Positions 11,418 to 48,441 of a stretch of 64,000 nucleotides of DNA are shown piece by piece. Numbering within the stretch: position 1 is the stretch's first letter; each line of letters opens with the position of its first letter. The translations under genes were made by a program, and so were the position numbers. The DNA is from a virus. The notes under the pieces were generated by a model, which made no database searches, had not been told where the DNA came from, and saw only the letters and a list, made by a program, of their open reading frames with translations. The DNA lies in IMG/VR virus record IMGVR_UViG_3300017917_004503, positions 87,374 through 151,373 of that record. One strand, 5' to 3'.

Positions 11418-11426
11418 TTGACTATA

Positions 11427-13157
11427 ATGAATATTTTTAAAAAGAACAACATATTAATTAATGGTTTACTAAACGATACTTTCGTTTTTCTTCAAGACAC
11501 TTATAATCAGACTGCTGCCATGTTTACTGTAGCTTCGGCTTGGGGTCAGATTCTTTTTGTTCTTCAAAACCTTTCTCAGATGATCCTGTATTTCATAGAG
11601 GATTCTATAACAGAACTTAATATAGAACAGGCATCAAGAGACTCTTCAATTAGAAGCTTAGCCAGAATAGCTGGATATGATCCTGGAAGAGCATCAACTG
11701 CTCAGGGAGAAGTTATTTTATCCTGGAATAGAAGAGAATCTGATGTCGGTGGAGGTGCAGTTATCATTAACAATAAATCTCAGATAAGATGTGATCAAAA
11801 TGGAAAGGTTTATTCTATGATATTCGGCTCAACCCGTGTTACTCTTCCATTAGCTTCAAGCTCAAGTCCTCTGAGAGTTAAAATAGCACAGGGTGATTTC
11901 CAAACTGCAATTGTAACTGGAACCGGTTTAGCTCTCCAGAGTTTTAACCTACCTTCTGCTAGCGCTGCTTTTCTGGATCAATTTTACGTAGATGTCTATG
12001 TGAACGAAGAAAAATGGAAGATGTTTGATTCTTTATATGATATTCCACTCAACGGTAAAGGATTTATAGTAAGAACCGGTATTCAAGAGGGACTGGACGT
12101 CTATTTCGGAAATTCTAATTTTGGGATGGTTCCTCAGAGAGGAGCCAGAATTAGAATAGAATATCTTCAAACGTCAGGTGTATCTGGAAATGCCGCATCA
12201 ACCAAAGATACTCCGTTGACGTATCGATTTGTATCAACTGGTACCGATTTATTTGGTAGTGAGGTTGACCTTAATAACTATTTGGTGATAGCTAATTCCA
12301 TTGATCCTTCATTTGGATCTAATCCTGAGCCATTAAACCTTGTTAGATTAGTAGCTCCTAAAACATCTAGATCTTTCGTTTTTGCTAATTCTACTAACTA
12401 TGAGATATTCCTTAATAAGCTTGGAATTTTTTCTCAAGTTCAAGCCTTTACGACTTTTGATGATGAGTATTTGGATGATGATAATGTCATTTACATTTAT
12501 CTTGTTCCGGACGTTACCCTAAATATAAGTTCGAATGAAGATTATTTTAGTATTCCAGTATCAAACTTTCTTTTAACCCAACAACAGAGATTAAGTGTCT
12601 TAAACTTAATAGAAGATTCTGGATCTATGATTGCTACGACGGTAGTTAAAATAGTTGAACCTGTTATAACTAGATACGTAGCTAATGTTGTTATTACGAT
12701 GTTTGAAGGATTTGATCCTGAAACCATTAGACAAGAAATCAGAAATAAAATATCCGATTATATGTTAAATCTCAAAAGAAGAGATTTTATACCAAAATCC
12801 GATATGATTGCTATAATAGAGTCAGTTGAGGGAGTTGATTCAGTTTCTTTCTTCTTCGTTGGACAAAAAAATGAAGCTAATCAGATATTAATGAGATCTT
12901 TAACTAATGTTACACCAGCTCAGATGGAACAACAAATAGGACTGAATTCATTCGGTGATATTATAATTGGAAGAAATGAATTGGTTGTTTTAAGAGGTGG
13001 ATGGACAGATAGAAATGGAATAAATTACGAGGAATCTATTACCGCAGGTAAACCTGGACCTTTAAATATTAGTATTTCTAACATAGTTCAGAGAGGATAT
13101 AACTCAGGACTAAATACTGATTTAAAAAGACAAATCATAGCATCATCTACAGTATAA
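11427..13157 (+). CDS. baseplate wedge subunit, gp6/baseplate-J-like
   Basis: ASRDSSIRSLARIAGY, VYFGN..FG.VP..GARIRIEYLQTSG..GN and ESVEGVDSV; ATG at 11427 (TTG 11418 is an alternative). Confidence 0.8.
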   Translation: MNIFKKNNILINGLLNDTFVFLQDTYNQTAAMFTVASAWGQILFVLQNLSQMILYFIEDSITELNIEQASRDSSIRSLARIAGYDPGRASTAQGEVILSWNRRESDVGGGAVIINNKSQIRCDQNGKVYSMIFGSTRVTLPLASSSSPLRVKIAQGDFQTAIVTGTGLALQSFNLPSASAAFLDQFYVDVYVNEEKWKMFDSLYDIPLNGKGFIVRTGIQEGLDVYFGNSNFGMVPQRGARIRIEYLQTSGVSGNAASTKDTPLTYRFVSTGTDLFGSEVDLNNYLVIANSIDPSFGSNPEPLNLVRLVAPKTSRSFVFANSTNYEIFLNKLGIFSQVQAFTTFDDEYLDDDNVIYIYLVPDVTLNISSNEDYFSIPVSNFLLTQQQRLSVLNLIEDSGSMIATTVVKIVEPVITRYVANVVITMFEGFDPETIRQEIRNKISDYMLNLKRRDFIPKSDMIAIIESVEGVDSVSFFFVGQKNEANQILMRSLTNVTPAQMEQQIGLNSFGDIIIGRNELVVLRGGWTDRNGINYEESITAGKPGPLNISISNIVQRGYNSGLNTDLKRQIIASSTV

Positions 13158-33556: not shown

Positions 33557-36500
33557 ATGTCTCAATCAAAGCTTTTCGATTATAATTCTTCTTTTTCTGT
33601 AATCAGAACGAATCCTAAACTTGCCGGTAATTTTAAAATAACGGTCGATTCTGATGGCGGGGTTTGGTTTAATTCAATGAATGTTAATCCTATTCTCTCA
33701 CAGGATAAGTACAAAAAATTCAATATCTCTGGTGACAATACTTATGCTTCAGATATTAACAAGTTTTTCGATGAAGGTAAGTTATCATCAGATATAATCT
33801 TTCAGGTTGGTAAATTTACTGATGGTGAAAATCAATCGGCTCAGCAGTTTGCCGAACAGTATGATTTTTTTTATGCTAGTGGTGCTCAGGCCTTAATAGA
33901 TAAAAATTACGGGGAAGATTTTAGTTATTTTGCACCTTTGTGGGTTAAGAATGAAATCCCAGATTTCTTTGTAATCTTTAAAGTCTCTGATCCTTTAGAT
34001 TATCCTTATTCTCAAAATGTAACCGATATCCAAGAAAATCTTAATTACATAGTTATCCAAGATTATACTTCTACTGAAAACTTTGTAGTTTCATACGGAA
34101 AAGATTCTGCAGGTAATGATTTATTTTTTGGCAATGGAGAGGTTTTTCAAGGAAAGATTAATCTTTCATCATATCAAATAATTAGTGGAACCGGTAAGGT
34201 TGCAGTTTATGATGAGTTATATTACCTACCGGACGTCAATGACATTTCTTCTACTTTTACACAAAAGATTCTTAATAAAGCAACTGTTATAAAAACATTC
34301 GATCTGAGAGAAAATACAAAAATTGGTAATTATATCAGATCTATTTTCAATAACCCTGGTTTTTCTAAATCTCCTCTTGAGGTTAGTTGGGGATATGATT
34401 CTTATACTTATTTTAAAGGTGCCAGCATTACTGAAGGAGTATACACAAAAAAAGGTGAGCTTCTAAATGACTACTTTTCAACATCTGCATCAGATGGTAT
34501 GATAGATTTTGAGGATTACTTAACTTCTGGATTTTCTAGAAATAATATAGTCTGTCCTAATTTATTAAATTTAGAATTTCTTTTTAATGACGATGAATCT
34601 GAACTGTATACGATTAATAGATACCTTGGATTTTATGTTTCTCGAAACGATGTTGCTCAATTTAGAATGAATGGTCAATTCTTCTACGAATTTAGAAACC
34701 TTGAAGGGAATGATAATCTACCTAAACCAACAAGAAATGATTTTGGATACTATTACAACAACTATTCTAAAATTTTCGGTGCAACTTCTGGAATTAGATT
34801 GTTTTATGAAAACGCAACAGGATTTTTGCCTGGATCAAATAACGTCAATTTGTTAGATTCAGATAAACTCTTTTATGTTACTGATAAAAATGACAACTTC
34901 TACAGTCTTAAAAGATCTGAAAGTTATGTCGTATCTGGTGTTACTGGTCCTGAATATTCTTATGGACCTTATGACTACTCATTAGGTTCATTCTCAGCTA
35001 CAGGATCAACTGGTGCAACTTCTGGATCAATTGTAATTCAGAATACAACAGCTAACATAAATTGGTTTACTGGTACAGATGATAAGGTAGCAACAATACT
35101 TGGTTCTAGGCCAGATTCTGCTGGTAGATCTTATATAGAGATTAAATTTTTAGAAAACTATAACGAGACCCAGCCTTTAACCCTAAAATTGTATTGGCCA
35201 AACGGATCCCAAAAAGAAGGACCTAGAAAGTTTGATATTATTAGAAGCGGTGATTTTTCTTCAATTTTAATCTGGACAGCTGGATCGTATTATTCAACTG
35301 GAAATTCTTATTATTTCAACGCTTCTACCGGAACAACATTCGAAGTAGCTGATGCTTTAGCTTCTGTTATAAAAGATTTAGATCAAGTAACAATAGATAG
35401 CGGACAAAATGAAAATTCTTCGATAATAAGGGTTAAAAATCCCGGGACATTCGGTAACGAATCTTATTCTCTATCGGTTTTTGATGATTATGATTCTTTT
35501 AAGAGTAAATTCAAAGGGACATGGAACAATACAACATCATATTTATTAGGCGATATTGTAAATTATTTAGGTAATTATTATGAAGCTTTATCTTCTGTTG
35601 TTCCACCTACTGGAGGTACGACAACGTCTCCTGATTCTAATGCTTCTTGGTCTACATATTATACTTTCTCGACATCTGGATTAATAGAGATTAATGGTAT
35701 AGATGCTTCTTTACTTAATCAGGACGTCAACTTTATAGGTGGCACACAAACAAGTAATACCAGGATAATATTTTCAGCAGAAAGAAAAGATCAGGTTCAG
35801 ATCGGTAATTATATAAAAACAAACTCAGGCTATTCTAGAATCGATAGCGTAACCAAATATGTTGATGATGCTATATTAGATGCAAATAATCAAGTTGTTG
35901 GATTTGATAATTTTTCGTATTGGTTAGTTGCTAATGTAGAGGATAATAATAGTATTATTGAATTAGGTTCGAATCAATCTTTTAACGTTTATCAATATGC
36001 ACAATCATCGTTGGGTGTATTCACATTCTTTGATGTAAAAGAATTTGATTTTGATTTCTGGAGTTCTAATTATAACTACACTCCAAACCCTGAAACCTAT
36101 AAATATTTTCAAATCCAGGCTAATACGGAGGGAGTTATTGAACCAAATATACCTTATTTTGTAAAGCGTGGACAAATAAGTTATGGTGGAAATATCTATA
36201 ATCAAGGTAATTTATTTTACGGTGTAACAGGATACACATCCTTTGAAGTTTCAGATCCTAGCTTAAATACTCCTTTCGATCAAATTCTTTCTGCCCAATC
36301 TAATTTTGCGACATCTCAGCAAATCTCAGTTTCTTCTAATGTTGTAGTTTTTCCAGCTCAGTATTCTGATGTTATTTATAATTCTTCCACTACTTCATAC
36401 GATAACATTGGTTATCAGACTGATATGAATTCATTTAATGGATTCATTGGAATACAGGGTATTTTATTGGATCCACAAAATATAGACCCAACTAAGGAAG

Positions 36501-39106
36501 AAATTTTTGCTTATGGTAAGTTGAAAACTGAATACGAATACTTAAAAGAGAACTTCACAGTACAAAGATCGAATATATCAAGAATTGTACCTTATATTAA
36601 CAAATGGGGTTCTTCTATAGGGACTGATTCGAGAGGAAATAGATATAGACTGAACATTAGTCCAGCTTTTTCACCTACCAATTTTTCTCCAAGTTTTGAA
36701 AAGATAACACCAGATCCCAAATATCTAACACACGAATGGTTTTTACTTGAAACACCTCCTAGATATTTTCCTCTGGATTATATGAATGAACAAAACAGCT
36801 ATCTATCGGGTCCCATAGATCTGGATAGAGCAAGAAGTGTAGATCCGAATGATAATCTTTACCTTTCTTCTTATTTTACAGTCGAACCCGAAGACTATGA
36901 AGCTGCCTTTAGAGATACCAGTAATTACACCAAAGAGTTCTTTACTAATTTTCAGTTTAATCAAGCTTCAGGTTATTATGAAACTATATTTAGAGGATGT
37001 AAGATAGTTTTAAAGAAAAGATCTGATGTTGTTACGGAGGGATTGGAAGAATCAGACCGATATATCAGAGGATATAGAGGATATGAGGATTATAAATTTG
37101 CTGCACTATTGAGAGCAGTGGAAGAAGATGACACAACTATACAATCACCTGTCAAATACCAAGTGATAGAAAACACTGAACAAAAATTTGTTTTATTCGT
37201 TTGTGATATAGTTATCAGAGAGCAGAGGGCTTTTGATTTAGGTGTTACTGGTCCTACCGGATTAACGGGTCCAAACCCAACCATAGATTACACGTTCTTA
37301 TACTCTGTAGATTCTAAATTGAAAGCTGTAAATCCTCCGCAAAACGGACAGGCTTTCACCAGTGTTGATGATATCAAATTGAGTTGCTCTTTAGATCTTT
37401 CTTTAGGCTCTTCTAGCTTTGTTAATGAAACTAGCAGTCCTGGTATAATAAACATATACAGAAATCCTGAATATGAAACAGATCTAAGAGAAGAAATTCA
37501 TGTTTTTTATGTTGAAAATTCATCAGGATCAACCGGAGGTCCTAGCTCAACTGGTAAAGCAAGTTTTACTGTACCTTCTATTTCAAGCACATATCCTTGG
37601 CCTACTGGAGTTGGCCCAAGTTATGTTGAGTTTGGAAAGGTTGCAACGGCTTCAAATTATGTGTTCTCTATTCCTTTTTCTCTAGTGACCCCTAATATAG
37701 TTCCTATTGGTCCTTCTTCTGTATATAGAAATAAACCAGTTTTCCAGAAAGAGGGTGGGGATTCTTATTATAAATCTTTATTAGGAAGAATTTCGGTAGC
37801 TTACATTTCGGATAAATTTAATAGAAGCTCTCCGTATATTTCTTATACAACTTACGATTTAGACAACCAAACTGGACAAGAAGTTATAACATCAAATAAC
37901 TTTGAACTGTATTTTGAAAAACCTACTAAGATTACTAAAATTACTGGAAGTACTCCCGTTGTATCCTTTAATGGACCTCAGATATTAAGAGGTTCTAGAA
38001 GTATAACTGGATATAACATTATCCAAAATAACAGATCTATTCCTTCTATTATGATTAGATATTCTGGAGACTATGAACCTTTGACCAGAAAGATAATCTA
38101 CTTTGATAAGGATAAATCCGATACTTTAATTGGGTCTAATAATGTTGATTTGTCTTTTAGAAATTGCAACTTTGCACCTAATAAAAAATATTTTGGAGTA
38201 TCTAGAAATTTAAATTACACCAAGGTTTCTTTGGGTAATAATATATTATCTTCTGCTACTAAATTTCCAGAAGGTGCTAGATACCCTTACATAGGTATAA
38301 CACCAATCTCTTATAAAGACTTTAATTTATTTTCTTCATCTTGGGATCCTGGATATTATAATAGATATGATTCTGCAACTAGAATGAGAAAAGTGGCAGG
38401 AACAAGAAGCATGAAAGAATTTAAAACTTTCTTTGGTTCTAAGATAATGCAAACTCCTGATCCTGTTTCTGTAAATAATTATATTACACTTCAAGTTTCT
38501 AGAACTTCTGGTGATAGTAGGGTAAGCGTTTTAAATGATCAGATACTTTCTTCTGTTAAGACCATTCAAGAGATAAATAAAAACAATTCAGGAACCGGTA
38601 TTGGATCTTTTGGACCATATCTTTCAAGCGTTGATTATAACAAGCTAGATCAAGCAATTTTTCCAAACGTTGAAATTTTTTGGCAATGGTTTGAAAATGA
38701 GAGAAAGATTAAAGGAGTAATTAGGCTAGATAGAATGCTAAGAAGATTCCTTTTAAATAGTGGTATAAAACAAGTTTTTGTTGATAATATGATAACTGAA
38801 TTTGGTGTTGGAAATCCCAAATCAATTAACGATGATGTTAATGAGTATATCGATTTAAACGTGAATCCTATTTATCAAGGAGATGTGTTTAATTTATATG
38901 TAAAGAAAACTGCCTCTGAGACAATTCCTACCATTCAGATAGTTAGAGGAGATATAGCCACTGTGGATAAATATAAGATGGAATATTTCGAGGATACGAA
39001 CTATAAATTAACTAAGCAGAGTAACCTCATTTATGAATTCGAGTATTCGACTGAGTCTAATTTTTATTACTCGATTTTGTTTAATTTCAGAATAACCAAA
39101 ATTTAA
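33557..39106 (+). CDS. very large virion structural protein with a CBM5/12-like insert
   Basis: 1849 aa; WNNTTSYLLGDIVNYLGNYYEA...PDSNASW insert. Confidence 0.55.
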   Translation: MSQSKLFDYNSSFSVIRTNPKLAGNFKITVDSDGGVWFNSMNVNPILSQDKYKKFNISGDNTYASDINKFFDEGKLSSDIIFQVGKFTDGENQSAQQFAEQYDFFYASGAQALIDKNYGEDFSYFAPLWVKNEIPDFFVIFKVSDPLDYPYSQNVTDIQENLNYIVIQDYTSTENFVVSYGKDSAGNDLFFGNGEVFQGKINLSSYQIISGTGKVAVYDELYYLPDVNDISSTFTQKILNKATVIKTFDLRENTKIGNYIRSIFNNPGFSKSPLEVSWGYDSYTYFKGASITEGVYTKKGELLNDYFSTSASDGMIDFEDYLTSGFSRNNIVCPNLLNLEFLFNDDESELYTINRYLGFYVSRNDVAQFRMNGQFFYEFRNLEGNDNLPKPTRNDFGYYYNNYSKIFGATSGIRLFYENATGFLPGSNNVNLLDSDKLFYVTDKNDNFYSLKRSESYVVSGVTGPEYSYGPYDYSLGSFSATGSTGATSGSIVIQNTTANINWFTGTDDKVATILGSRPDSAGRSYIEIKFLENYNETQPLTLKLYWPNGSQKEGPRKFDIIRSGDFSSILIWTAGSYYSTGNSYYFNASTGTTFEVADALASVIKDLDQVTIDSGQNENSSIIRVKNPGTFGNESYSLSVFDDYDSFKSKFKGTWNNTTSYLLGDIVNYLGNYYEALSSVVPPTGGTTTSPDSNASWSTYYTFSTSGLIEINGIDASLLNQDVNFIGGTQTSNTRIIFSAERKDQVQIGNYIKTNSGYSRIDSVTKYVDDAILDANNQVVGFDNFSYWLVANVEDNNSIIELGSNQSFNVYQYAQSSLGVFTFFDVKEFDFDFWSSNYNYTPNPETYKYFQIQANTEGVIEPNIPYFVKRGQISYGGNIYNQGNLFYGVTGYTSFEVSDPSLNTPFDQILSAQSNFATSQQISVSSNVVVFPAQYSDVIYNSSTTSYDNIGYQTDMNSFNGFIGIQGILLDPQNIDPTKEEIFAYGKLKTEYEYLKENFTVQRSNISRIVPYINKWGSSIGTDSRGNRYRLNISPAFSPTNFSPSFEKITPDPKYLTHEWFLLETPPRYFPLDYMNEQNSYLSGPIDLDRARSVDPNDNLYLSSYFTVEPEDYEAAFRDTSNYTKEFFTNFQFNQASGYYETIFRGCKIVLKKRSDVVTEGLEESDRYIRGYRGYEDYKFAALLRAVEEDDTTIQSPVKYQVIENTEQKFVLFVCDIVIREQRAFDLGVTGPTGLTGPNPTIDYTFLYSVDSKLKAVNPPQNGQAFTSVDDIKLSCSLDLSLGSSSFVNETSSPGIINIYRNPEYETDLREEIHVFYVENSSGSTGGPSSTGKASFTVPSISSTYPWPTGVGPSYVEFGKVATASNYVFSIPFSLVTPNIVPIGPSSVYRNKPVFQKEGGDSYYKSLLGRISVAYISDKFNRSSPYISYTTYDLDNQTGQEVITSNNFELYFEKPTKITKITGSTPVVSFNGPQILRGSRSITGYNIIQNNRSIPSIMIRYSGDYEPLTRKIIYFDKDKSDTLIGSNNVDLSFRNCNFAPNKKYFGVSRNLNYTKVSLGNNILSSATKFPEGARYPYIGITPISYKDFNLFSSSWDPGYYNRYDSATRMRKVAGTRSMKEFKTFFGSKIMQTPDPVSVNNYITLQVSRTSGDSRVSVLNDQILSSVKTIQEINKNNSGTGIGSFGPYLSSVDYNKLDQAIFPNVEIFWQWFENERKIKGVIRLDRMLRRFLLNSGIKQVFVDNMITEFGVGNPKSINDDVNEYIDLNVNPIYQGDVFNLYVKKTASETIPTIQIVRGDIATVDKYKMEYFEDTNYKLTKQSNLIYEFEYSTESNFYYSILFNFRITKI

Positions 39107-39108
39107 AA

Positions 39109-40659
39109 ATGCCAAGTACTAATATACAAACAATTTTATATTCTGATAATACAGATCAGACCATAGACAAGCTCAATAATAATTTCGATGAAATTGTTGA
39201 GCTTCATGGAGGTACTATAGGTACTATAGGTCCAACTGGAAGTCCAGGTGCTCTAGGAGAAAGAGGAATCCCAGGATCAACCGGAATATCTGGACCAAGA
39301 GGAACAAGATGGTTTATTTCAACATCTGCTCCTGCAGGACCTGCTCAGGAGGGAGATTATTGGATAGATTCGGATTCCAGTCAAATATACCAATTATATT
39401 CTTCCGGCTGGATATTTACAGGTTTTAATGTTAATATTTCGGGTGATCTATTTCAATCTATACTTACACAGCTTCCACCCTCTTCCGGATATGCTGGAGG
39501 GACTGGAATATCTGTAGGAATGGATCAGGTGTTACCTAATAATTATCTATACACTTTAAGTGACGTAACACCCGAATTTGGTATAACCAACCAAACTTTG
39601 TCGAAATTTCTAATCGCAACAAATTCTACAGAGAATGATGCTCCGCTTTTAGAATTTTCTAAAAGTAATGTTGAAAGTGGACAGATCTCTGATTATTCTA
39701 AACATCCTGTTTTTACGTGGCCGAATGTTAATCCCTCTGATAATTCTTTAGAGTTAACAGTTCCAGGAGGGAGTTTTTCAATGGGTCTTTCTGGAGGAAC
39801 GAAAGCCGGATTTAATAATTTTAGTCTGGATTCTCAGGGACCAATTGTAATTGATTATGGAGCTACTTCATCAAGTGGAATATACTCTACTGGAGGTTTT
39901 TCTTTCGATGCTTCTTCTGGAAGATTTAATATCACTAGCCAATTTTTAAGAATACTTGGTGGATCCGGAGAATTTAGAAATCCAATTTCTTCTACAGCAA
40001 CACTAAATGAAAGCAATCCATCGGTTACTGTTTCGATAGGAGGAACCTCCGGATTATTAAGCACGAGATCTGGTGATTCTCATTCAACTATTTCGCATAA
40101 CGTTAATCACATTTCATTAGAAACAACGTCATCGACACAATTTTCGCTTAACACAAAAGGTAAGCTAACTACAAAAAAGACAGTAGAGGGTATAACGTAC
40201 GCAAGTCAAACTCCCGGTGTTACTGGTACAGTGAGTGCAGATTTCGTTAACTGGTATCTAATATCCAAACCTGGATCTTCAGTTTCTTCTTCAGTTCTTA
40301 GCAATGGTAATACCATGATTATAAGTCCTTCTGTTTCAAGTGGAAAAATTGGGGTTGGATTTTACACAAATCCATCTGATTATTTTGGATGGGGTAGCAC
40401 AGCAGGCGTCTTAGCTGGTGAGTCGATGGATGTGAAAGTTTTTCTTTCTTCTGAGAACTTTTCTCAAACATACGGCGGAATAAGCTATCTTGGCGTTGGA
40501 GCTACTTCTGGATCAATAGTCAATAAGGTTTCTTTGCCTTTTAGGGCTTCTGCAATAGATTTTACTATAGCCAAAGGAGTTACCGGTGGACAGGTTACCA
40601 CTGTGTATTATACAGCTTACGGAATAACTGGAGGATCAGGGGGATCTTTTACTTTCTGA
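39109..40659 (+). CDS. collagen-segment tail fibre protein, paralog 1
   Basis: KLNNNFDEI, 10 G-X-Y triplets, GDYWID. Confidence 0.65.
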   Translation: MPSTNIQTILYSDNTDQTIDKLNNNFDEIVELHGGTIGTIGPTGSPGALGERGIPGSTGISGPRGTRWFISTSAPAGPAQEGDYWIDSDSSQIYQLYSSGWIFTGFNVNISGDLFQSILTQLPPSSGYAGGTGISVGMDQVLPNNYLYTLSDVTPEFGITNQTLSKFLIATNSTENDAPLLEFSKSNVESGQISDYSKHPVFTWPNVNPSDNSLELTVPGGSFSMGLSGGTKAGFNNFSLDSQGPIVIDYGATSSSGIYSTGGFSFDASSGRFNITSQFLRILGGSGEFRNPISSTATLNESNPSVTVSIGGTSGLLSTRSGDSHSTISHNVNHISLETTSSTQFSLNTKGKLTTKKTVEGITYASQTPGVTGTVSADFVNWYLISKPGSSVSSSVLSNGNTMIISPSVSSGKIGVGFYTNPSDYFGWGSTAGVLAGESMDVKVFLSSENFSQTYGGISYLGVGATSGSIVNKVSLPFRASAIDFTIAKGVTGGQVTTVYYTAYGITGGSGGSFTF

Positions 40660-40665
40660 TATATA
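40658..40665 (+). promoter_or_regulatory. putative late promoter GATATATA
   Basis: Recurrent motif overlapping the upstream stop codon. Confidence 0.45.
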
Positions 40666-40688
40666 CTTAAAGATCAAGATTCTATAAA

Positions 40689-42698
40689 ATGCCAGATTTA
40701 AAATTGTTAAGAATAGAACAAGGTGATAGCCAGAAGAATTTAGCTGACAAAGTTAATCAAAATTTTTCTGACATTATTGCTTTTGGTGGTGGACCCTATG
40801 GAAAAGTAGGTAAACAGGGACCACAGGGTGATCAAGGAATAACCGGCCCAGTTGGACCGTATGGATCGCTTGGATATAGAGGCAGCATATGGACTGTTGG
40901 CCCAACACAGCCTTCTGCTACCGGAGGGTTTAATGGCGACTATTGGATTAACCCTGAAAATTTTAATTCTGTTTATATTCTTAATTCTGGTTCATGGTCA
41001 CCTTATGGATTTAATCTACTCGGTCAAGATTTATTTAGAATTTATGAACCAGTAACAACGTCTTCTGGAAACTCTACATATTCTGGCTATTATATTTCAT
41101 CTATTAATCCACAGCAGAATACTCTAGTTTTAAGTGATAATATTGTAGCTAACGACTCAGTTACAGCAAATCCGCAGTATTCTAAAGTTGTTATTTCTAT
41201 AGATGGTGGTGCAACAGGTAAGAACTTAATGGAGTTTACAAAAAGCGAGTATGTTGATAATACTTCTTTTAGAAGTTCTACACCCAGATTTTTCTGGAGC
41301 GATAGATCTTTAACTAATTACAATCTTTCTTTCCTAAGTGGAGGATCTTTATTTTTCGATCTTTCGTCAAATCTCTCTTTGCAATCTAAGGCTTTTGGGT
41401 ATAATCTAAATTTTAGAAGTTCAGGGATGATCCTGAATCTAAACTCTTCACTCGGATTTTCTGCTAGATCTTCTGGAGGAAATATCATATTAGATTTCAA
41501 AACAACAGGGACTGCTAATTTTTCAGCTGGCAATATCAGATATTCATCTAGTTTATTTACCATGCCTGTTAATTTTGTGATCACCTCACAGAGCACAGAC
41601 TCGCTTCCTGCATTATGGTTATCGAATTCTAATTCTTCCGTTAGTGGATTTAGACACAAATCTAACATCCAACCGAATAGAAGTTCTAGACTTTTTCGAG
41701 CTTACGATGTTGCTTCTGCATCATCAATGTTTGAAGTTTTGGGCGACGGAGAGGTCTATTTAAACAGAAAGGTAAGTTCAATACAACCAAGCCAATCTGT
41801 TTCAAAAGGAGGAACAGGAACTGTTTATATTGGAGCAACTTCATCTGTTTCTGTTGGCTGGTATGCAGTAATCCCGACGATTGCCATTACCTCCTCTGTT
41901 ACTAATACTGTAAATTGTAATAACGGTTCTAATTTTGTAATAACACCAACATCGACTGGACCATCCAGTGCAACTGGTATTTATTTATGGACACCTTCAA
42001 CAGGTGGAGGTATTAACACCAATCCTGGATGGCTAAATCTAATCAATAATCAAAATTCTGAGTCTATAAGTTTTACTGTTAGAACAGATTCAGAAAGTAA
42101 ATTGGTTAGATTTATAGGCTTAGGACTTGGACAGACTTATGATGTTTTACCTCCTGGAGAATATATCTCTTCCACCGGAAACGGAGGATTTGTGGATCTG
42201 ACAGGAAACAATTCAATCGGCGCTTCTCATATAGACTTTACGATTATAAACTTATACGGTCAGAGTGCAGTAGCTAACAACAGATGGTTTAAGGTTTACT
42301 ATAGTGCTTATGGAGGAAATTTAGGTTCAGTTAAATGTGGTGTTCTTTACACCCCACCTTTTAGTGCTTATATTAACACTGGATCTATCTATATGACAGA
42401 TTCATCTCTGAGCCAAACTCTTCCTTTTTCTAGTACTATTTTAGCAACAGGTACACCTATAACACCTGGGCAATCTAGAAACTTTACACCTCCTTCTTTC
42501 CCAAGTGGAAGTGCCTTTAGTGCAACAGCTACTTTTTCATCTGCACCGACAACAGTAACTGCTACTCTGATAAGGTATCCATCTGGAACATCTACAAACG
42601 GTACTATTAGTGGATCTGGAACTAGCAGAACTATTACTTGGAGTGGAATAGATTTATCTACTTCTACTGCCTATGTGGTTAGAATTGGTGGATCTTAA
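40689..42698 (+). CDS. collagen-segment tail fibre protein, paralog 2, with extra C-terminal domain
   Basis: KVNQNFSDI, 10 G-X-Y triplets, GDYWIN; C-terminus homologous to that of the 13691 protein. Confidence 0.65.
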   Translation: MPDLKLLRIEQGDSQKNLADKVNQNFSDIIAFGGGPYGKVGKQGPQGDQGITGPVGPYGSLGYRGSIWTVGPTQPSATGGFNGDYWINPENFNSVYILNSGSWSPYGFNLLGQDLFRIYEPVTTSSGNSTYSGYYISSINPQQNTLVLSDNIVANDSVTANPQYSKVVISIDGGATGKNLMEFTKSEYVDNTSFRSSTPRFFWSDRSLTNYNLSFLSGGSLFFDLSSNLSLQSKAFGYNLNFRSSGMILNLNSSLGFSARSSGGNIILDFKTTGTANFSAGNIRYSSSLFTMPVNFVITSQSTDSLPALWLSNSNSSVSGFRHKSNIQPNRSSRLFRAYDVASASSMFEVLGDGEVYLNRKVSSIQPSQSVSKGGTGTVYIGATSSVSVGWYAVIPTIAITSSVTNTVNCNNGSNFVITPTSTGPSSATGIYLWTPSTGGGINTNPGWLNLINNQNSESISFTVRTDSESKLVRFIGLGLGQTYDVLPPGEYISSTGNGGFVDLTGNNSIGASHIDFTIINLYGQSAVANNRWFKVYYSAYGGNLGSVKCGVLYTPPFSAYINTGSIYMTDSSLSQTLPFSSTILATGTPITPGQSRNFTPPSFPSGSAFSATATFSSAPTTVTATLIRYPSGTSTNGTISGSGTSRTITWSGIDLSTSTAYVVRIGGS

Positions 42699-42726
42699 TA
42701 AATAAATTAGAACAAAGTATTTAGAC

Positions 42727-44457
42727 ATGCACTTTAACATAAAACATATTTTCAAAGGAGAATCTGAATCTGAAATAGTTAAAAAGATTAATTATAACTT
42801 CGATCAGATTATATCTTTTGCTGTCGGTCCAGACGGACAAGGTGGTCCAAAGGGTTCTTTAGGAATACCTGGACCAGCGGGTAAAAAAGGAGCAACTGGA
42901 CCAACTGGAACTAGATCAAGTCTTTTTACTAAACAGGATACATCACCTGCCACTGGGGATTCCAATCCATATGATTATTGGATAGATTCATCTTCGAGTG
43001 ATTATAGCATATATTCTTATGGTGTAACTGGATCTGGCTCGTGGTCTTTCACTGGTTATTCTTTATTCTCTTCTCCATATTTTAATGTATACGACGGAAT
43101 AGTAGGACCAGGAGGAGCTACTGATAAGTTTGCGATAGCTTTTAAAAATGGAGCATCGTTTCTTGTTGATAACGGTCTTTCGGTTTCTGATGCTAGCTTA
43201 ATAATATCCGATGGAACTATTACATCTTCTAATGGAAATCCGAATCGTTCTAAACTTGTGATTGCGACCGAAGATCAAACTTCTAGACCTATATTAGCCT
43301 TTGCTAAAACTGGTTCATCTAACTCAGGAATACCTTCTTTCTATTGGACAAATAGTGGTAATTCTACGAATTTATCTTTTAGAAGCACCGGTGATTTTTA
43401 CATATCGTCACTTTTAGGCTTAACCGTAGATTCATATACCGCAAGTTCTATTTTGAATGGTAACTCTGCTTCAATCACTTCGACGAGTGATATTACGATA
43501 GGTGGAACCGGCGATTTTTTCCTAAATACTAATACGACTGTTGGTGTTGGTTCTAATTTCATCGTTAGCTCTGGTAACTTAACTTTCAGTAGCACATCTT
43601 TTAGAAGTTCGAATCCTGTAAAGATTACAAATACTTCACAAACGTCGGGGTATGTGTTTGATACTACAAAAAACTCGACTGCATTTCTTTCTTATTCAGG
43701 TGTAGAAATATACGGTGGTAGTTTTGCAACAAAAATGTTTGAATTTAGAGATAGTAATAATGCAACTATTTTCTCTAGTAGCGTAAAGGGACCAGTTCAA
43801 ACCAACAATTATGGACAAACGACATTTGGATCTACCGGCGGTTTACCTGCAGGAGGAACTGCTGGTCCATATTTTTATCATGTTAAAAGATCTACTGAAT
43901 ATAGGCAAAGTACATATTCACTATTTTGTTTAGGTGCTAATAATATTGCAACGACATCAAGTACTTTAGTTTCGGGTACAATAAGGAACGTCTTTGACAT
44001 TTCAAACCCTGAATCATTTTTAACTGATACTATTATAATTACACCAACCACGTACGAGTCTCCGTCCACATCAACTGTTTATGTAAGAATACCTAGTTAT
44101 TTTGCATCAACCTTACCTGGTGTTTATTATTCAAACACTTCTTGTAATTATAGGATTATACTTAATGATGAATCAGGATCTCCAACATATTCTTTAGGTG
44201 GATTAGTTTTTACTTATTATAATTATCCTTCTCTTTTTAATTACTACTTTACCAGTGATTATTACGTTCCTTTTAATTCCTCTTCTACATGCTATTATGT
44301 TGATTTATTTTTTGCACCAGCTGCTAGTTCAACTAATGCAAATCCTAGAATTTTTTGGAAAACGTGCGATGGTAGATCTGGATACCTAACTACAACAAAT
44401 AAAAATACTGTTGGTACTTTCTCTGCTTCTGGAACAACGTTTAGCGGAAGTGCATAA
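42727..44457 (+). CDS. collagen-segment tail fibre protein, paralog 3
   Basis: KINYNFDQI, 10 G-X-Y triplets, YDYWID. Confidence 0.65.
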   Translation: MHFNIKHIFKGESESEIVKKINYNFDQIISFAVGPDGQGGPKGSLGIPGPAGKKGATGPTGTRSSLFTKQDTSPATGDSNPYDYWIDSSSSDYSIYSYGVTGSGSWSFTGYSLFSSPYFNVYDGIVGPGGATDKFAIAFKNGASFLVDNGLSVSDASLIISDGTITSSNGNPNRSKLVIATEDQTSRPILAFAKTGSSNSGIPSFYWTNSGNSTNLSFRSTGDFYISSLLGLTVDSYTASSILNGNSASITSTSDITIGGTGDFFLNTNTTVGVGSNFIVSSGNLTFSSTSFRSSNPVKITNTSQTSGYVFDTTKNSTAFLSYSGVEIYGGSFATKMFEFRDSNNATIFSSSVKGPVQTNNYGQTTFGSTGGLPAGGTAGPYFYHVKRSTEYRQSTYSLFCLGANNIATTSSTLVSGTIRNVFDISNPESFLTDTIIITPTTYESPSTSTVYVRIPSYFASTLPGVYYSNTSCNYRIILNDESGSPTYSLGGLVFTYYNYPSLFNYYFTSDYYVPFNSSSTCYYVDLFFAPAASSTNANPRIFWKTCDGRSGYLTTTNKNTVGTFSASGTTFSGSA

Positions 44458-44494: not shown

Positions 44495-44764
44495 ATGATC
44501 GAACTAAACAAAGAAGAAAAAAATAAAATTCTTGATTTATCTAGAGATTTTATTAGAATCCACGGAGAATTACTTTCTGTTGAGGAATCAATTAAAAAGC
44601 TGGAAGCTAAATCTTTGGATCTTATCGCACAGCTTGAGGAATGCCGAACCACAGATAAGCAATTTTCAGATCAGCTAAAAGAAAAATATGGTCCAGGACG
44701 TTTAGATGTCAATGGATTATGTTGGAAAAATGAAGAAACTTTAATTTATGAAGAACTTAGGTAA
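44495..44764 (+). CDS. small coiled-coil protein
   Basis: 89-aa heptad pattern ending LKEKYGPGRLD. Confidence 0.55.
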   Translation: MIELNKEEKNKILDLSRDFIRIHGELLSVEESIKKLEAKSLDLIAQLEECRTTDKQFSDQLKEKYGPGRLDVNGLCWKNEETLIYEELR

Positions 44765-45592: not shown

Positions 45593-47878
45593 ATGTCATT
45601 TAGCAGCACTTCAAAATATGTCCAACTTACTCCGTATCTTCTTATGGAGTACATGTATGCTGACGAACCACAACCCGAATCCTATTTTGTTAATAGTGGA
45701 CCTGTAACAGTTGGATATCAGAAGCTGATAAATGGGTATGCGTCCAATAGTGTTCAAGTATTCAATCCTAATTCTGATTTTGATATAACACATAACACTG
45801 CTAATAATAGTGTGGTACAGATTGCTACAAATTCTTTTGTGACACTTGATTCTAATCTAATCATACCTTTTAATGATTACTCTGAGAAGTTAACAGATAC
45901 CAACAATCTACCCATCACATTTCCTTCTAATTTATCTGTAGTATATGATACTGTTAGATACCATATTAGAGCAGGATATACCTTGAATAACACAGATGGA
46001 ATAATTTTACAAATCGAATTGCAAGATCAAAACCTGAGTTATGTTACAATTTCACAAATCTTGCTACAGAAAGGAACCCAACAGGAATATACCCTAAATC
46101 CGAATCCTGTAACAATTGGATCAAATATTTATGATAAATATTTTGAAATAAAAATTCCAAATTCGCTAGATATGAACAACAAATATCTAGCGGCTTCAAG
46201 TAGTTTTAAACCACAAACACTAGCCTCTTTAATCAGTCAAAGTGGAAATGGATTTGTTTACGGAGCTCCTATGAGAATTGGGGTTTGGCAGGTTCAAAGT
46301 ACTATCGATTTTGAAGGATATTCTAGATATGATTCTGCTAGAATTGCTTTATTGTCTCTTGAAGCTGAAGATCCTTTTTCGAATATAGGTGCTACAATCA
46401 AAATTTCAGATCAAGGTCAGTTTTTTGAATACTATGCAACCGATAATGAAGGATTTATTGAGGATTTCATACTGTTTCAGAATTCAATTGGGAATAGCTA
46501 TTATATTAGTCACAAGATAGAAGTCCTAGAACAAATAGGAACTGCAGTTATACAAACATCTAGCTTTGAATCTATTCAAACGACAGCATATGATTCACCC
46601 AATTATTATCGTCCAATAGTTAGGAATGCAGCTTATTCAGTTTCTTTTACATTGAGATACACTATGTCTTTAATTAATAATGTTGATCAAAGTAGAGTAA
46701 TAAGAATATCTTCATACACATCAGATAATCCTGCTAACTGGGGATTGACAATAACTCAAATACAGCTACAAAATCTTCCTCAGGTACAGAAAATCTATAA
46801 TAGAGTTTATGACCAACCTTCGATAACTATGGGTAACAATGGGTCACTTCAACCTAGAGAGATTCTAAAATATACTAATGTTTTCATTCAGCAGAATTAC
46901 GTAACAGCAACAAGTAATAATCTAACTTTTTCTTCAGGTACTTTGGCAGAGTCAGTGGGAACAACTTCAGTTACTGCTGTCGGATCTGGTAAATTAACTA
47001 TTTCAATTTCACCTTTTGATAACTATTATAAATTCAAATTTATAAAGAATGTAGCGAACGGAACACCTTCTGCTATTGATTTGAGTGATAGTGGATTATT
47101 TAAACTTGCATTTCTCGACAAGGCAGGAAATAAAACTTATATCCCTGCTTTAGCAGACTTAACGATAGCCAGACCATCTTCGGGAGAACTTGCTTTTAAG
47201 ATTGACGAGTCAACCTCAGGTAAAATTCTACAGTTTACTGATAGAAGATTTTTCATAACCAACGGTGGAGGTGCTACTGGTTCAGTCTCAAGTCCTCCAG
47301 CTACACAATTAGCAGCAGCAACTACTGGAACTACTCCTGAAGCTGCGAGAAGAACCGCAGCAATTGTAAATTCTGTTGCTTCGGTTACCAATCAGTCAAC
47401 TTCAGTTTTATATTGGGGATACTGGAAAAAAGACGGAGAATCTGACGTTGTGGTTCCAACTACACCGGCTCCTCCTGTTTCATCTGGATCTGGAGCAAGA
47501 GTTCTAGGAACAATCGGTGGAGTTACAAATGCTCCTAAACCAGCAATAAGCCAAATAGCACCTCCAGCTTCTCAAACTATTTCAGATGTCAGAATATCTG
47601 ATGGCGGGCCTCAGGCTAAACCTAGTTTAACAGGCAGCGCTTTAATTTCTGCACTATCAGCTCAAATTGATGGATATAAAGCAACCGGATGGGCTGATCA
47701 AACAATAATAACATATTTTTTAACCCCAGGTAGAGCTGGATATTTACAGTATCCTGGATTAACAAAAGAACAATTTGTTACTGCTGCTGAAGGGATATTA
47801 GCTCCTTCTAGCTTACAGTCTCTTGTTAGTCCTAACAGAGGGAAAAGAAATGGTGGATCTACTGTTGGTCCAGTTTAA
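45593..47878 (+). CDS. hypothetical virion protein with Pro/Ala/Thr-rich C-terminal linker
   Basis: 761-aa ORF in the structural cluster. Confidence 0.5.
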   Translation: MSFSSTSKYVQLTPYLLMEYMYADEPQPESYFVNSGPVTVGYQKLINGYASNSVQVFNPNSDFDITHNTANNSVVQIATNSFVTLDSNLIIPFNDYSEKLTDTNNLPITFPSNLSVVYDTVRYHIRAGYTLNNTDGIILQIELQDQNLSYVTISQILLQKGTQQEYTLNPNPVTIGSNIYDKYFEIKIPNSLDMNNKYLAASSSFKPQTLASLISQSGNGFVYGAPMRIGVWQVQSTIDFEGYSRYDSARIALLSLEAEDPFSNIGATIKISDQGQFFEYYATDNEGFIEDFILFQNSIGNSYYISHKIEVLEQIGTAVIQTSSFESIQTTAYDSPNYYRPIVRNAAYSVSFTLRYTMSLINNVDQSRVIRISSYTSDNPANWGLTITQIQLQNLPQVQKIYNRVYDQPSITMGNNGSLQPREILKYTNVFIQQNYVTATSNNLTFSSGTLAESVGTTSVTAVGSGKLTISISPFDNYYKFKFIKNVANGTPSAIDLSDSGLFKLAFLDKAGNKTYIPALADLTIARPSSGELAFKIDESTSGKILQFTDRRFFITNGGGATGSVSSPPATQLAAATTGTTPEAARRTAAIVNSVASVTNQSTSVLYWGYWKKDGESDVVVPTTPAPPVSSGSGARVLGTIGGVTNAPKPAISQIAPPASQTISDVRISDGGPQAKPSLTGSALISALSAQIDGYKATGWADQTIITYFLTPGRAGYLQYPGLTKEQFVTAAEGILAPSSLQSLVSPNRGKRNGGSTVGPV

Positions 47879-47892
47879 AAAAATAATATAAG

Positions 47893-48441
47893 ATGATTTT
47901 AAATCCAAAAGGCAGTAGTTTTTATTTCAATTTTCCTAAAGGCTTTTTTTCTGAAAGAGTTGTTTCCAAATACACTAAATACATCGAGAAACAGCCTTCT
48001 CCCTTCGAAAACGTTCCGCAGTACGTGAATAGTACTATACAGTCGATTTCATTCCCTAGCTTAAATATTGACAGCGTTGAGCAAGTAAGACCTTTGGGCA
48101 AGAAGGTTAGCTATAAAAGTTCTACTCCTCTGCAGGATTTATTTTCTAAAGACATAAGTATAAATTTTAAGGCTGCTGATGGATTCGTTAATTATTTTAT
48201 AATGCTTGACACTGTTCTTGATTTTTTAAATTTTGGAAATCCTCAAGTCTTTATTCAAACTTTGCCATTAAGGGTTATGGATGGTGAAGGAAACATAGTA
48301 TTCTCTGTTGAATTCCAGGAAGTTATTTTTACTTCTTTTAGTGGATTAGAGCTCAATTACACATCAAATAACCCATCTTATACTGGCTTTACGTTGGGAT
48401 TCACATGTAACTATTTAGACGTAAAGTTTGAAGCTAAATAA
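47893..48441 (+). CDS. tail tube-fold protein (gp3 tail completion / gp19-like)
   Basis: QSISFPSLNI...LRVMD..GNIV.SVEF....TSFSGLELNY...FTLGF pattern; 182 aa. Confidence 0.55.
   Translation: MILNPKGSSFYFNFPKGFFSERVVSKYTKYIEKQPSPFENVPQYVNSTIQSISFPSLNIDSVEQVRPLGKKVSYKSSTPLQDLFSKDISINFKAADGFVNYFIMLDTVLDFLNFGNPQVFIQTLPLRVMDGEGNIVFSVEFQEVIFTSFSGLELNYTSNNPSYTGFTLGFTCNYLDVKFEAK

What the first reader, a model, noticed from the sequence alone, without database searches (positions are those of the whole stretch)
39109..44457. Three tandem paralogous fibre genes with exactly in-register collagen segments: possible heterotrimeric collagen fibre
Seen: each protein has NxNF, exactly 8 residues, then 10 G-X-Y triplets ending in Arg (39211-39300, 40791-40880, 42826-42915), then DYWI and SK..I......[LM].F.K....P.F.W motifs, despite strong divergence elsewhere. 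Known: collagen helices need three chains, and phage collagen fibres are generally described as homotrimers. Inference: three genes with conserved register suggest a 1:1:1 heterotrimer with three different distal heads.
Basis: partly seen in the sequence, partly recalled or inferred. Interest (0 to 1): 0.7.

Follow-up and report, generated by a model that had tools for sequence, protein, structure and literature searches.

The report
Three paralogous collagen-stalk phage tail fibres
A large environmental phage carries three neighbouring, related tail-fibre genes that all begin with the same short collagen-like stalk. That stalk length is an old, family-wide feature also found in one-gene and two-gene relatives, so it does not show that the three proteins join into one mixed fibre.

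Summary
Three tandem genes (516, 669 and 576 aa; 27-29% identical) sit in the baseplate/tail module of a jumbo phage contig of about 151 kb. Each has NxNF, an 8-residue spacer, a Gly-X-Y run, then W...DYWI and shared motifs to about residue 205. One correction: A and B have 11 triplets, and only C has 10.

The A-B-C set, in that order, is kept in 36 related viral contigs and in two much more distant ones. However, the 8-residue spacer and 11-triplet stalk are family-wide. About 30 sister contigs carry one such gene, which must form a homotrimer if it forms collagen at all. One clade has two genes. One outlier has a pair with 14 triplets each, and one has a single gene with 8 triplets and an S74 chaperone.

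A conserved promoter-like motif (GATATATA) also separates A from B-C in all 28 distinct triads.

Most likely these are three separate homotrimeric, tailspike-like fibres sharing a proximal module (about 0.5). An ABC heterotrimer is not excluded (about 0.3); weak charge patterns are compatible with it. First readers in this scan noted the same triad on two other genomes.

The parts
39109..40659 (+). Fibre paralogue A (516 aa). It starts 3 nt after the stop of the 1849-aa baseplate gene. Its length is the most conserved of the three (512-532 aa in 26 of 28 orthologues).
39151..39201 (+). Predicted N-terminal amphipathic helix of A (residues 15-31) carrying the K-x-N-x-N-F motif. Among orthologues, the N-terminal 34 residues are the best conserved part of each paralogue (64-72% identity).
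39211..39309 (+). Collagen-like run of A: 11 G-X-Y triplets (residues 35-67).
39310..39462 (+). Post-collagen 'neck' of A (residues 68-118; W68, DYWI 83-86, W101). It is a small beta module and the most confident part of the models (pLDDT 73-89).
40658..40665 (+). GATATATA promoter-like motif overlapping the stop codon of A, 24 nt before the start of B. It is present at this junction in all 28 distinct triads.
40689..42698 (+). Fibre paralogue B (669 aa). The core is about 555 aa, plus a C-terminal extension of about 110 aa found in only 4 of 28 orthologues.
40791..40889 (+). Collagen-like run of B: 11 G-X-Y triplets.
42727..44457 (+). Fibre paralogue C (576 aa). In relatives it is the most variable in length (548-1159 aa) and in added distal domains.
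42826..42915 (+). Collagen-like run of C: 10 G-X-Y triplets. The 11th position reads SSL here.
44495..44764 (+). Conserved 89-aa ORF directly after the last fibre gene. The one hit examined in each matching locus lies downstream of the last fibre gene, in loci with 1, 2 or 3 fibre genes. Its role is unknown; an assembly factor is only a guess.
33557..39106 (+). 1849-aa protein upstream, in the baseplate gene block (context). Its homologue precedes the fibre gene or genes in every related locus. Its size does not rise with fibre copy number.

Best explanation
A, B and C are three paralogous tail-fibre or tailspike-like proteins of a jumbo phage, probably infecting Bacteroidota. Each has a conserved proximal module of about 215-225 residues: a short N-terminal helix, a fixed-length collagen-like stalk of 11 triplets, a small beta 'neck', and a conserved stretch after it. 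A beta-rich distal part follows.

Shown: the module, with the same spacer and triplet count, is ancestral to the whole family. The genes expanded stepwise from one, to two (an A/B-type plus a C-type), to three. A lies in one apparent operon with the giant baseplate gene, while B and C follow a conserved promoter-like motif.

Inferred: each protein forms its own homotrimer, as the single-gene ancestor must have done. The N-terminal helix and collagen stalk dock on the baseplate and act as a fixed-length spacer. Paralogue-specific N-termini direct each trimer to its own site. The three distal parts, C the most variable, give the phage three different surface-binding or glycan-degrading activities.
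For: The genes lie between baseplate genes and a tail-tube gene: a wedge-subunit PHROG hit at 11418-13157 and a tube hit at 47893-48441. PHROG tail-fibre families match the collagen-plus-neck region.

Single-gene relatives have the same 8-residue spacer and 11 triplets in the same synteny. A single-gene relative in the 462-kb phage LR756500 ends in a Peptidase_S74 intramolecular chaperone (E 3.9e-14). Some single-gene forms carry a Phage Tail Collar domain. Both domains are known from homotrimeric fibres.

Copy number varies among 1, 2 and 3, with an independent duplication in L094. This is typical of expansions of receptor-binding protein genes.

Distal lengths vary independently: A 512-532 aa, B about 555 or about 668 aa, C 548-1159 aa, with Hint or beta-propeller additions on C only.

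GATATATA sits between A and B in 28 of 28 triads and before the single gene in the four sister-clade loci checked. It is absent before A and between B and C, so A and B-C are probably not expressed equally.

The neck's best, though weak, fold matches are trimerisation modules of homotrimers.
Against: No oligomeric state was measured or modelled. All three genes are strictly retained in the same order over deep divergence, with congruent subtrees. That fits an obligate complex at least as well. Right after a full-length duplication of a homotrimer gene, the copies must have co-assembled. The first ~205 residues have stayed collinear. The baseplate protein upstream shows no size gain that would suggest new docking sites. 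Predicted self charge pairs in AAA, BBB and CCC are about zero. The N-terminus of A is strongly acidic (mean -4.5) and the stalk of C basic (mean +3.1), which would disfavour homotrimers electrostatically.
Confidence: 0.5

Rival explanations
1. One reading: one chain each of A, B and C zip into a single heterotrimeric collagen stalk and neck, giving one fibre with three different distal parts. In this reading the single-gene homotrimer became an obligate heterotrimer by two duplications (S3, then X2C or XC2, then ABC), as happened for C1q and archaeal PCNA.
For: All three genes are kept in fixed order in 36 triad loci (28 distinct) and in the distant L090 and L093, with no triad missing one intact member. 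The subtrees are congruent. The first ~205 residues are collinear, with identical spacing from NxNF to the first Gly and from the first Gly to W68. The mean charges of A, B and C (N-terminus -4.5, -1.4, +0.6; stalk +1.2, +1.0, +3.1) average to the single-gene values (-1.9, +1.6). A mixed trimer would therefore keep the ancestral total charge. The in-register B-A-C arrangement has the best mean charge-pair score of 27 compositions and of 150 register/offset combinations (1.75 against about 0 for homotrimers). It is the top ABC-type order in 17 of 28 phages. In a triplet-shuffle control, 2 of 500 shuffles reached the observed value. One C orthologue (L032) carries a mid-helix Gly-to-Ala break, which one chain of three would tolerate better. 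The upstream baseplate protein is no larger in triads than in single-gene phages.
Against: The register argument is void because the register is ancestral. The charge-pair signal rests mainly on one contact, C-Y7 Lys to B-X9 Asp. That contact is absent in this window and in the distant triads L090 and L093, and the test was not corrected for shared ancestry. A conserved promoter-like motif separates A from B-C. Distal parts differ by up to 600 residues. One- and two-gene relatives function without the full set. No heterotrimeric phage fibre turned up in the paper library.
Confidence: 0.3
2. A branched assembly. A, the constant-length paralogue co-transcribed with the giant baseplate protein, is a built-in baseplate fibre or adaptor. 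The B and C homotrimers hang from it or from each other, as in the multi-tailspike complexes of phage CBA120 or the branched fibres of phiKp24.
For: A is in the baseplate operon, while B and C share a separate promoter-like unit and are nearly abutting (2-16 nt apart in most relatives). The length of A is constant while B and C vary. The N-termini are conserved in a paralogue-specific way.
Against: All three have the same proximal module, whereas known branched systems use different adaptor domains on each partner. No docking domain was detected in A. Nothing was tested directly.
Confidence: 0.12

Closest known systems
Collagen-like phage and prophage fibre proteins: Staphylococcus phage 80alpha FibU gp68 (PMC7048315), E. 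coli O157 prophage collagen-like proteins (PMC3368898), Streptococcus prophage hyaluronidase, and Bacillus BclA as a non-phage case
   Same: A short uninterrupted G-X-Y run is flanked by non-collagen domains in a virion fibre or surface filament. The family profile hits 80alpha gp68 (E 2.7e-5), BclA (E 4.9e-6) and a hyaluronoglucosaminidase chain (E 0.031) through this segment.
   Different: Similarity beyond the G-X-Y run is at most marginal: the hyaluronoglucosaminidase hit (E 0.031) spans profile positions 34-129. Here the run is N-terminal, fixed at 11 triplets with a fixed 8-residue spacer across the family. It is preceded by a K-x-N-x-N-F helix, and the gene occurs as a conserved set of three paralogues.
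Complement C1q A/B/C (from general knowledge, not tested here)
   Same: Three tandem paralogous genes, each with a short N-terminal region, an in-register collagen segment and its own C-terminal part. This is the natural model for the heterotrimer reading.
   Different: No gC1q domain or any detectable homology was found. C1q chain selection is made by the gC1q heads, and no equivalent selective domain is identified here. One- and two-gene relatives also exist.
Multi-fibre or multi-tailspike sets of large phages, such as the phiKp24 hyperbranched fibres (PMC9700779) and CBA120 TSP1-4 (PDB 7rej, 5w6f appear among weak fold hits)
   Same: Several paralogous or modular homotrimeric receptor-binding proteins are encoded side by side next to baseplate genes. 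Distal parts are variable, and the middle region looks like a beta-helix.
   Different: Those proteins use distinct N-terminal adaptor domains and lack a shared collagen stalk. Fold similarity here is weak (Z 3.8-4.5).
Multiplexin (collagen XV/XVIII) trimerisation domain, PDB 3n3f and 9bnb
   Same: A compact domain of about 55 residues sits directly after a collagen helix. It is the top structural match for residues 62-119 (Z 4.2-4.3, with 49-53 of 53-57 residues aligned).
   Different: The score is weak and within the range of chance. Foldseek E is above 1, and there is no sequence similarity. Treat it as a lead only.

Membership tests
Collagen triple-helix repeat (Pfam PF01391) | Uninterrupted Gly-X-Y repeats | tested here: met
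   11, 11 and 10 consecutive triplets. The family profile matches animal collagens through this segment.
Collagen triple-helix repeat (Pfam PF01391) | Score above Pfam's gathering threshold (27.2 bits) | tested here: not met
   A scores 19.9 bits, C 16.1 bits, and B gives no hit. The run is shorter than the 60-residue model.
Collagen triple-helix repeat (Pfam PF01391) | Three chains actually form a triple helix | not testable with these tools
   Only monomer models were available. The segment is modelled as extended, with pLDDT 31-75.
Phage tail fibre / tailspike | Encoded in the tail/baseplate module | tested here: met
   Baseplate wedge PHROG hit at 11418-13157. Tail tube PHROG hit at 47893-48441. 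The synteny is kept in all relatives.
Phage tail fibre / tailspike | Sequence or fold match to characterised fibre or spike domains | tested here: inconclusive
   PHROG tail-fibre hits (best E 8.3e-8) cover only the collagen and neck region. Fold hits to tailspike beta-helices and a capsid spike reach Z 3.5-5.7 on a low-confidence model.
Phage tail fibre / tailspike | Homotrimeric assembly | not testable with these tools
   No multimer prediction was available. The inference rests on the single-gene relatives.
Heterotrimeric collagens of the C1q type | Three paralogous chains with matched collagen register | tested here: met
Heterotrimeric collagens of the C1q type | All chains always co-occur in relatives | tested here: not met
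   Related loci carry one gene (about 30 distinct loci), two genes (L086-L089, L094) or three.
Heterotrimeric collagens of the C1q type | A chain-selective non-collagen trimerisation domain (gC1q, NC1 or similar) | tested here: inconclusive
   No Pfam hit to such domains. The neck resembles a homotrimerising multiplexin domain only weakly.
Heterotrimeric collagens of the C1q type | 1:1:1 co-assembly | not testable with these tools
   Only crude charge-pair counts were possible.
Fibres with a C-terminal S74 intramolecular chaperone | Peptidase_S74 domain at the C-terminus | tested here: not met
   Absent from A, B and C. Present in the single-gene relative in LR756500 (E 3.9e-14).

The most novel reading that the evidence does not exclude
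A, B and C form an obligate 1:1:1 heterotrimeric collagen-stalked fibre. It would have evolved from a homotrimer through a two-gene stage, each chain having specialised for its own position at an asymmetric baseplate docking site and carrying its own distal domain. That would be the first heterotrimeric fibre described in a phage, and a compact natural ABC collagen register of only 33 residues.
Probability: 0.3. Interest if true: 0.75.

Novelty: new member of a known kind. Interest (0 to 1): 0.42.

Why it matters
This is a widespread but uncharacterised fibre family of environmental jumbo phages: 395 cluster representatives score below E 1e-30 against the profile (a count that includes long collagen proteins matching only the collagen stretch), and every close homologue of A is unnamed or 'hypothetical' in its source. 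Its collagen stalk has a strikingly invariant length. That points to a molecular-ruler role at the baseplate. The family preserves all three stages (one, two and three genes) of a homotrimer gene expansion. This makes it a clean natural system for asking whether duplicated trimer subunits segregate into separate homotrimers or lock into a heterotrimer. If the heterotrimer reading were true, it would add a new assembly principle for phage receptor-binding proteins and a short natural template for register-specific collagen design. If the ordinary reading is true, the finding is a useful annotation and not a surprise.

Tried and rejected
- Nucleotide and protein searches of A against 50,697 phage records found nothing. 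Only the upstream giant protein links the window to Lak, Tenacibaculum PTm1 and 'huge phage' records.
- PTm1 lacks a fibre gene beside its homologue, so it gave no information.
- A profile search of PDB sequences returned only collagens and collagen-like segments.
- Foldseek against the PDB gave no hit at E <= 0.001 for either model. VIA-align gave only Z < 6.
- The full-length monomer model of A was poor (mean pLDDT 56.7).
- The predicted C-Y7 Lys to B-X9 Asp pair was checked as a heterotrimer signature. It is absent in this window and in the distant triads, and shows no covariation.
- I considered that equal triplet counts in the L094 pair (14 and 14) support co-assembly. I rejected it as independent evidence, because that pair comes from its own duplication and single-gene phages also hold the count fixed.
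Context of more distant members and expression data could therefore not be obtained.
- Paper searches found no described heterotrimeric phage fibre.
Full report
**What is there.** The window is the last 64 kb of a 151-kb viral record estimated to be about half complete, with about 35% G+C.

Three adjacent + strand ORFs lie at 39109-40659 (A, 516 aa), 40689-42698 (B, 669 aa) and 42727-44457 (C, 576 aa). They are paralogues. A finds B at E 1.1e-14 and C at E 7.2e-9, and nothing else in the record. Identity is 27-29% over the whole length.

All three have K-x-N-x-N-F, exactly 8 residues, a Gly-X-Y run, then W, DYWI, W, SK, F.K and P.F.W in register to about residue 205.

A and B have 11 triplets (39211-39309 and 40791-40889). 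C has 10 (42826-42915), and the conserved Arg is the Y residue of triplet 10.

**Context.** The genes sit at the end of a block of very large genes next to a baseplate-wedge homologue (11418-13157). They lie shortly before a tail-tube homologue (47893-48441).

The 1849-aa protein just upstream has distant homologues in Lak megaphages, Tenacibaculum jumbo phages and 'huge phage' assemblies.

PHROG tail-fibre families match only the collagen-plus-neck stretch (best E 8.3e-8). Pfam's Collagen model scores below its threshold.

**Relatives.** A pattern scan of viral contigs gave 80 loci.

- Thirty-six of them (28 distinct) carry A, B and C in the same order. All have the 8-residue spacer.
- A and B always have 11 triplets. 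C has 10 or 11, because the 11th Gly is Ala or Ser in about half.
- One C orthologue (L032) has a Gly-to-Ala break at triplet 6.
- Lengths are A 512-532 aa (two outliers), B about 555-582 or about 668 aa, and C 548-1159 aa.
- About 30 further distinct loci have a single gene of 730-1300 aa. It has the same spacer and the same 11 triplets, in the same synteny. It is homologous to A only over the first ~225 residues.
- In the 462-kb phage LR756500 the homologue of the 1849-aa protein is followed by one 1789-aa fibre. It has 8 triplets and a C-terminal Peptidase_S74 chaperone.
- A profile search of 1.8 billion representatives found 395 proteins at E < 1e-30. Of 99 with the N-terminal module, 97 have the 8-residue spacer, and nearly all have 11 triplets (10 in C-types).
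- Following up intermediate members showed a clade with two genes, one A/B-like and one C-like (L086-L089). It also showed two very distant triads (L090, L093) and a contig with two paralogues that both have 14 triplets (L094).

**History.** In trees of the first 215 residues, A, B and C are each one clade (support 98-100) with congruent internal branching.

- The single-gene clade is separate.
- A and B group together (support 86), with the first gene of the two-gene clade at their base.
- The C-like genes of the two-gene clade and the distant triads join C.
- The L094 pair is an independent duplication.

So the family went from one gene to two to three, and the stalk length predates all of this. 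These were quick trees with SH-aLRT support only, and the deepest order is not firmly resolved.

**Structure.** Monomer AlphaFold2 models are confident only for three parts:

- a helix at residues 15-31 (pLDDT about 90);
- the beta 'neck' at 68-110 (pLDDT 73-89);
- a C-terminal beta-sandwich at about 370-516 (pLDDT 70-89).

The middle is poorly modelled and looks like a beta-helix.

Fold searches gave only weak matches. For the neck these were the collagen XV/XVIII trimerisation domain (Z 4.2-4.3) and neck modules of homotrimeric tailspikes. For the C-terminus the best was a phage capsid spike (Z 5.7). For the middle they were pectate-lyase or autotransporter-like helices (Z 3.5-5.3). These are leads, not assignments.

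**Regulation.** GATATATA occurs 10 times in the window against 4.2 expected. All copies are on the + strand, and most lie 19-40 nt before a start codon.

One copy overlaps the stop of A, 24 nt before B. The same motif is at the A-B junction in 28 of 28 distinct triads. It lies before the single gene in the four sister-clade loci checked. A one-mismatch variant lies before the first gene of the two-gene clade.

It is absent before A, which abuts the giant baseplate gene. It is also absent between B and C, which lie 2-16 nt apart in most relatives and 28 nt here.

By analogy with the T4 late promoter TATAAATA (my own knowledge) I read it as a late promoter. On that reading A is expressed with the baseplate genes, and B-C have an extra promoter. 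This is inference.

**Homotrimers or heterotrimer.** The points for separate homotrimers are:

- The module works as a homotrimer in single-gene relatives.
- Copy number varies between lineages.
- Distal parts vary independently, and C carries lineage-specific Hint or beta-propeller additions.
- The promoter-like motif splits the set.
- Every characterised phage fibre known to me is homotrimeric, and the paper library holds no counter-example.

The points for a heterotrimer are:

- The three genes are strictly co-retained in order over deep divergence.
- The proximal ~205 residues are collinear.
- The baseplate protein does not grow with copy number.
- Charge is partitioned. The N-terminus of A averages -4.5 and C +0.6. 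The stalk of C averages +3.1. The three-chain mean equals the single-gene value.
- A crude count of axial and lateral charge pairs ranks in-register B-A-C first of 27 compositions and of 150 offset combinations (mean 1.75). Homotrimers score about 0. In a triplet-shuffle control, 2 of 500 shuffles reached the observed value.

That last signal comes mostly from one contact, which is missing in this window and in the distant triads. It was not corrected for shared ancestry, so I weight it lightly.

Compared with the single-gene stalks, which are rich in Pro and Gln, the A, B and C stalks have about half the proline and more charged residues. B and C also carry about two aromatic or His residues each. 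This fits either relaxed or re-specialised helices.

**Verdict.** The register argument for a heterotrimer fails, because the register is ancestral and family-wide.

I rate three separate homotrimeric fibres sharing a proximal module at about 0.5. I rate an ABC heterotrimer at about 0.3 and a branched assembly at about 0.1. None of these can be settled without multimer modelling or biochemistry.

First readers in this scan flagged the same triad on two other genomes with the same unverified idea.

Noticed in passing
window 40658-40665, also 7536, 11027, 19908, 26699, 48444, 54015, 59012, 60852, 63506: GATATATA occurs 10 times, all on the + strand, mostly 19-40 nt upstream of start codons. Its position relative to the fibre genes is conserved across relatives whose proteins are only about 45% identical. 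It is probably a late-promoter element.
   Followed up: partly
L039:13436-15769, L016:13364-15664, L014:13263-15806 (C orthologues): Some C orthologues end in a Hint/intein-like domain at the extreme C-terminus (AXH/Hint/PT-HINT hits, E down to 9e-13). This suggests self-cleavage at the fibre tip. The window's own C lacks it.
   Followed up: no
L030:5666-9142: This C orthologue is 1159 aa and carries a DUF5122 beta-propeller repeat. It is an example of distal-domain swapping restricted to C.
   Followed up: no
window 44495-44764: An 89-aa ORF directly after the last fibre gene is conserved in relatives with one, two or three fibre genes (54 hits). In each matching locus listed, the hit lies downstream of the last fibre gene. 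No family hit and no known function.
   Followed up: partly
L032:4253-6226: The collagen run of this C orthologue has a mid-helix Gly-to-Ala substitution at triplet 6 (GIS-APA-GRR).
   Followed up: no
L094:7938-12641: A distant contig has two tandem fibre paralogues of its own duplication. Both have 14 G-X-Y triplets, not 11.
   Followed up: partly
L023:11593-13341: Here the B gene lacks its N-terminal module (the ORF starts at 11887). The near-identical contig L079 has it intact. This is possibly a frameshift or an assembly error.
   Followed up: no
window 45593-47878: A 761-aa protein with no family hit lies just before the tail-tube gene and is conserved downstream of the fibres in all relatives. 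By position it may be the tail sheath; this was not tested.
   Followed up: no
one search hits such as P0032, P0049, P0004: The stretch made of the last collagen triplets plus the neck (profile positions 34-108) also ends the long collagen regions of many much larger proteins in metagenomes. The neck therefore looks like a general cap for collagen-like segments.
   Followed up: no
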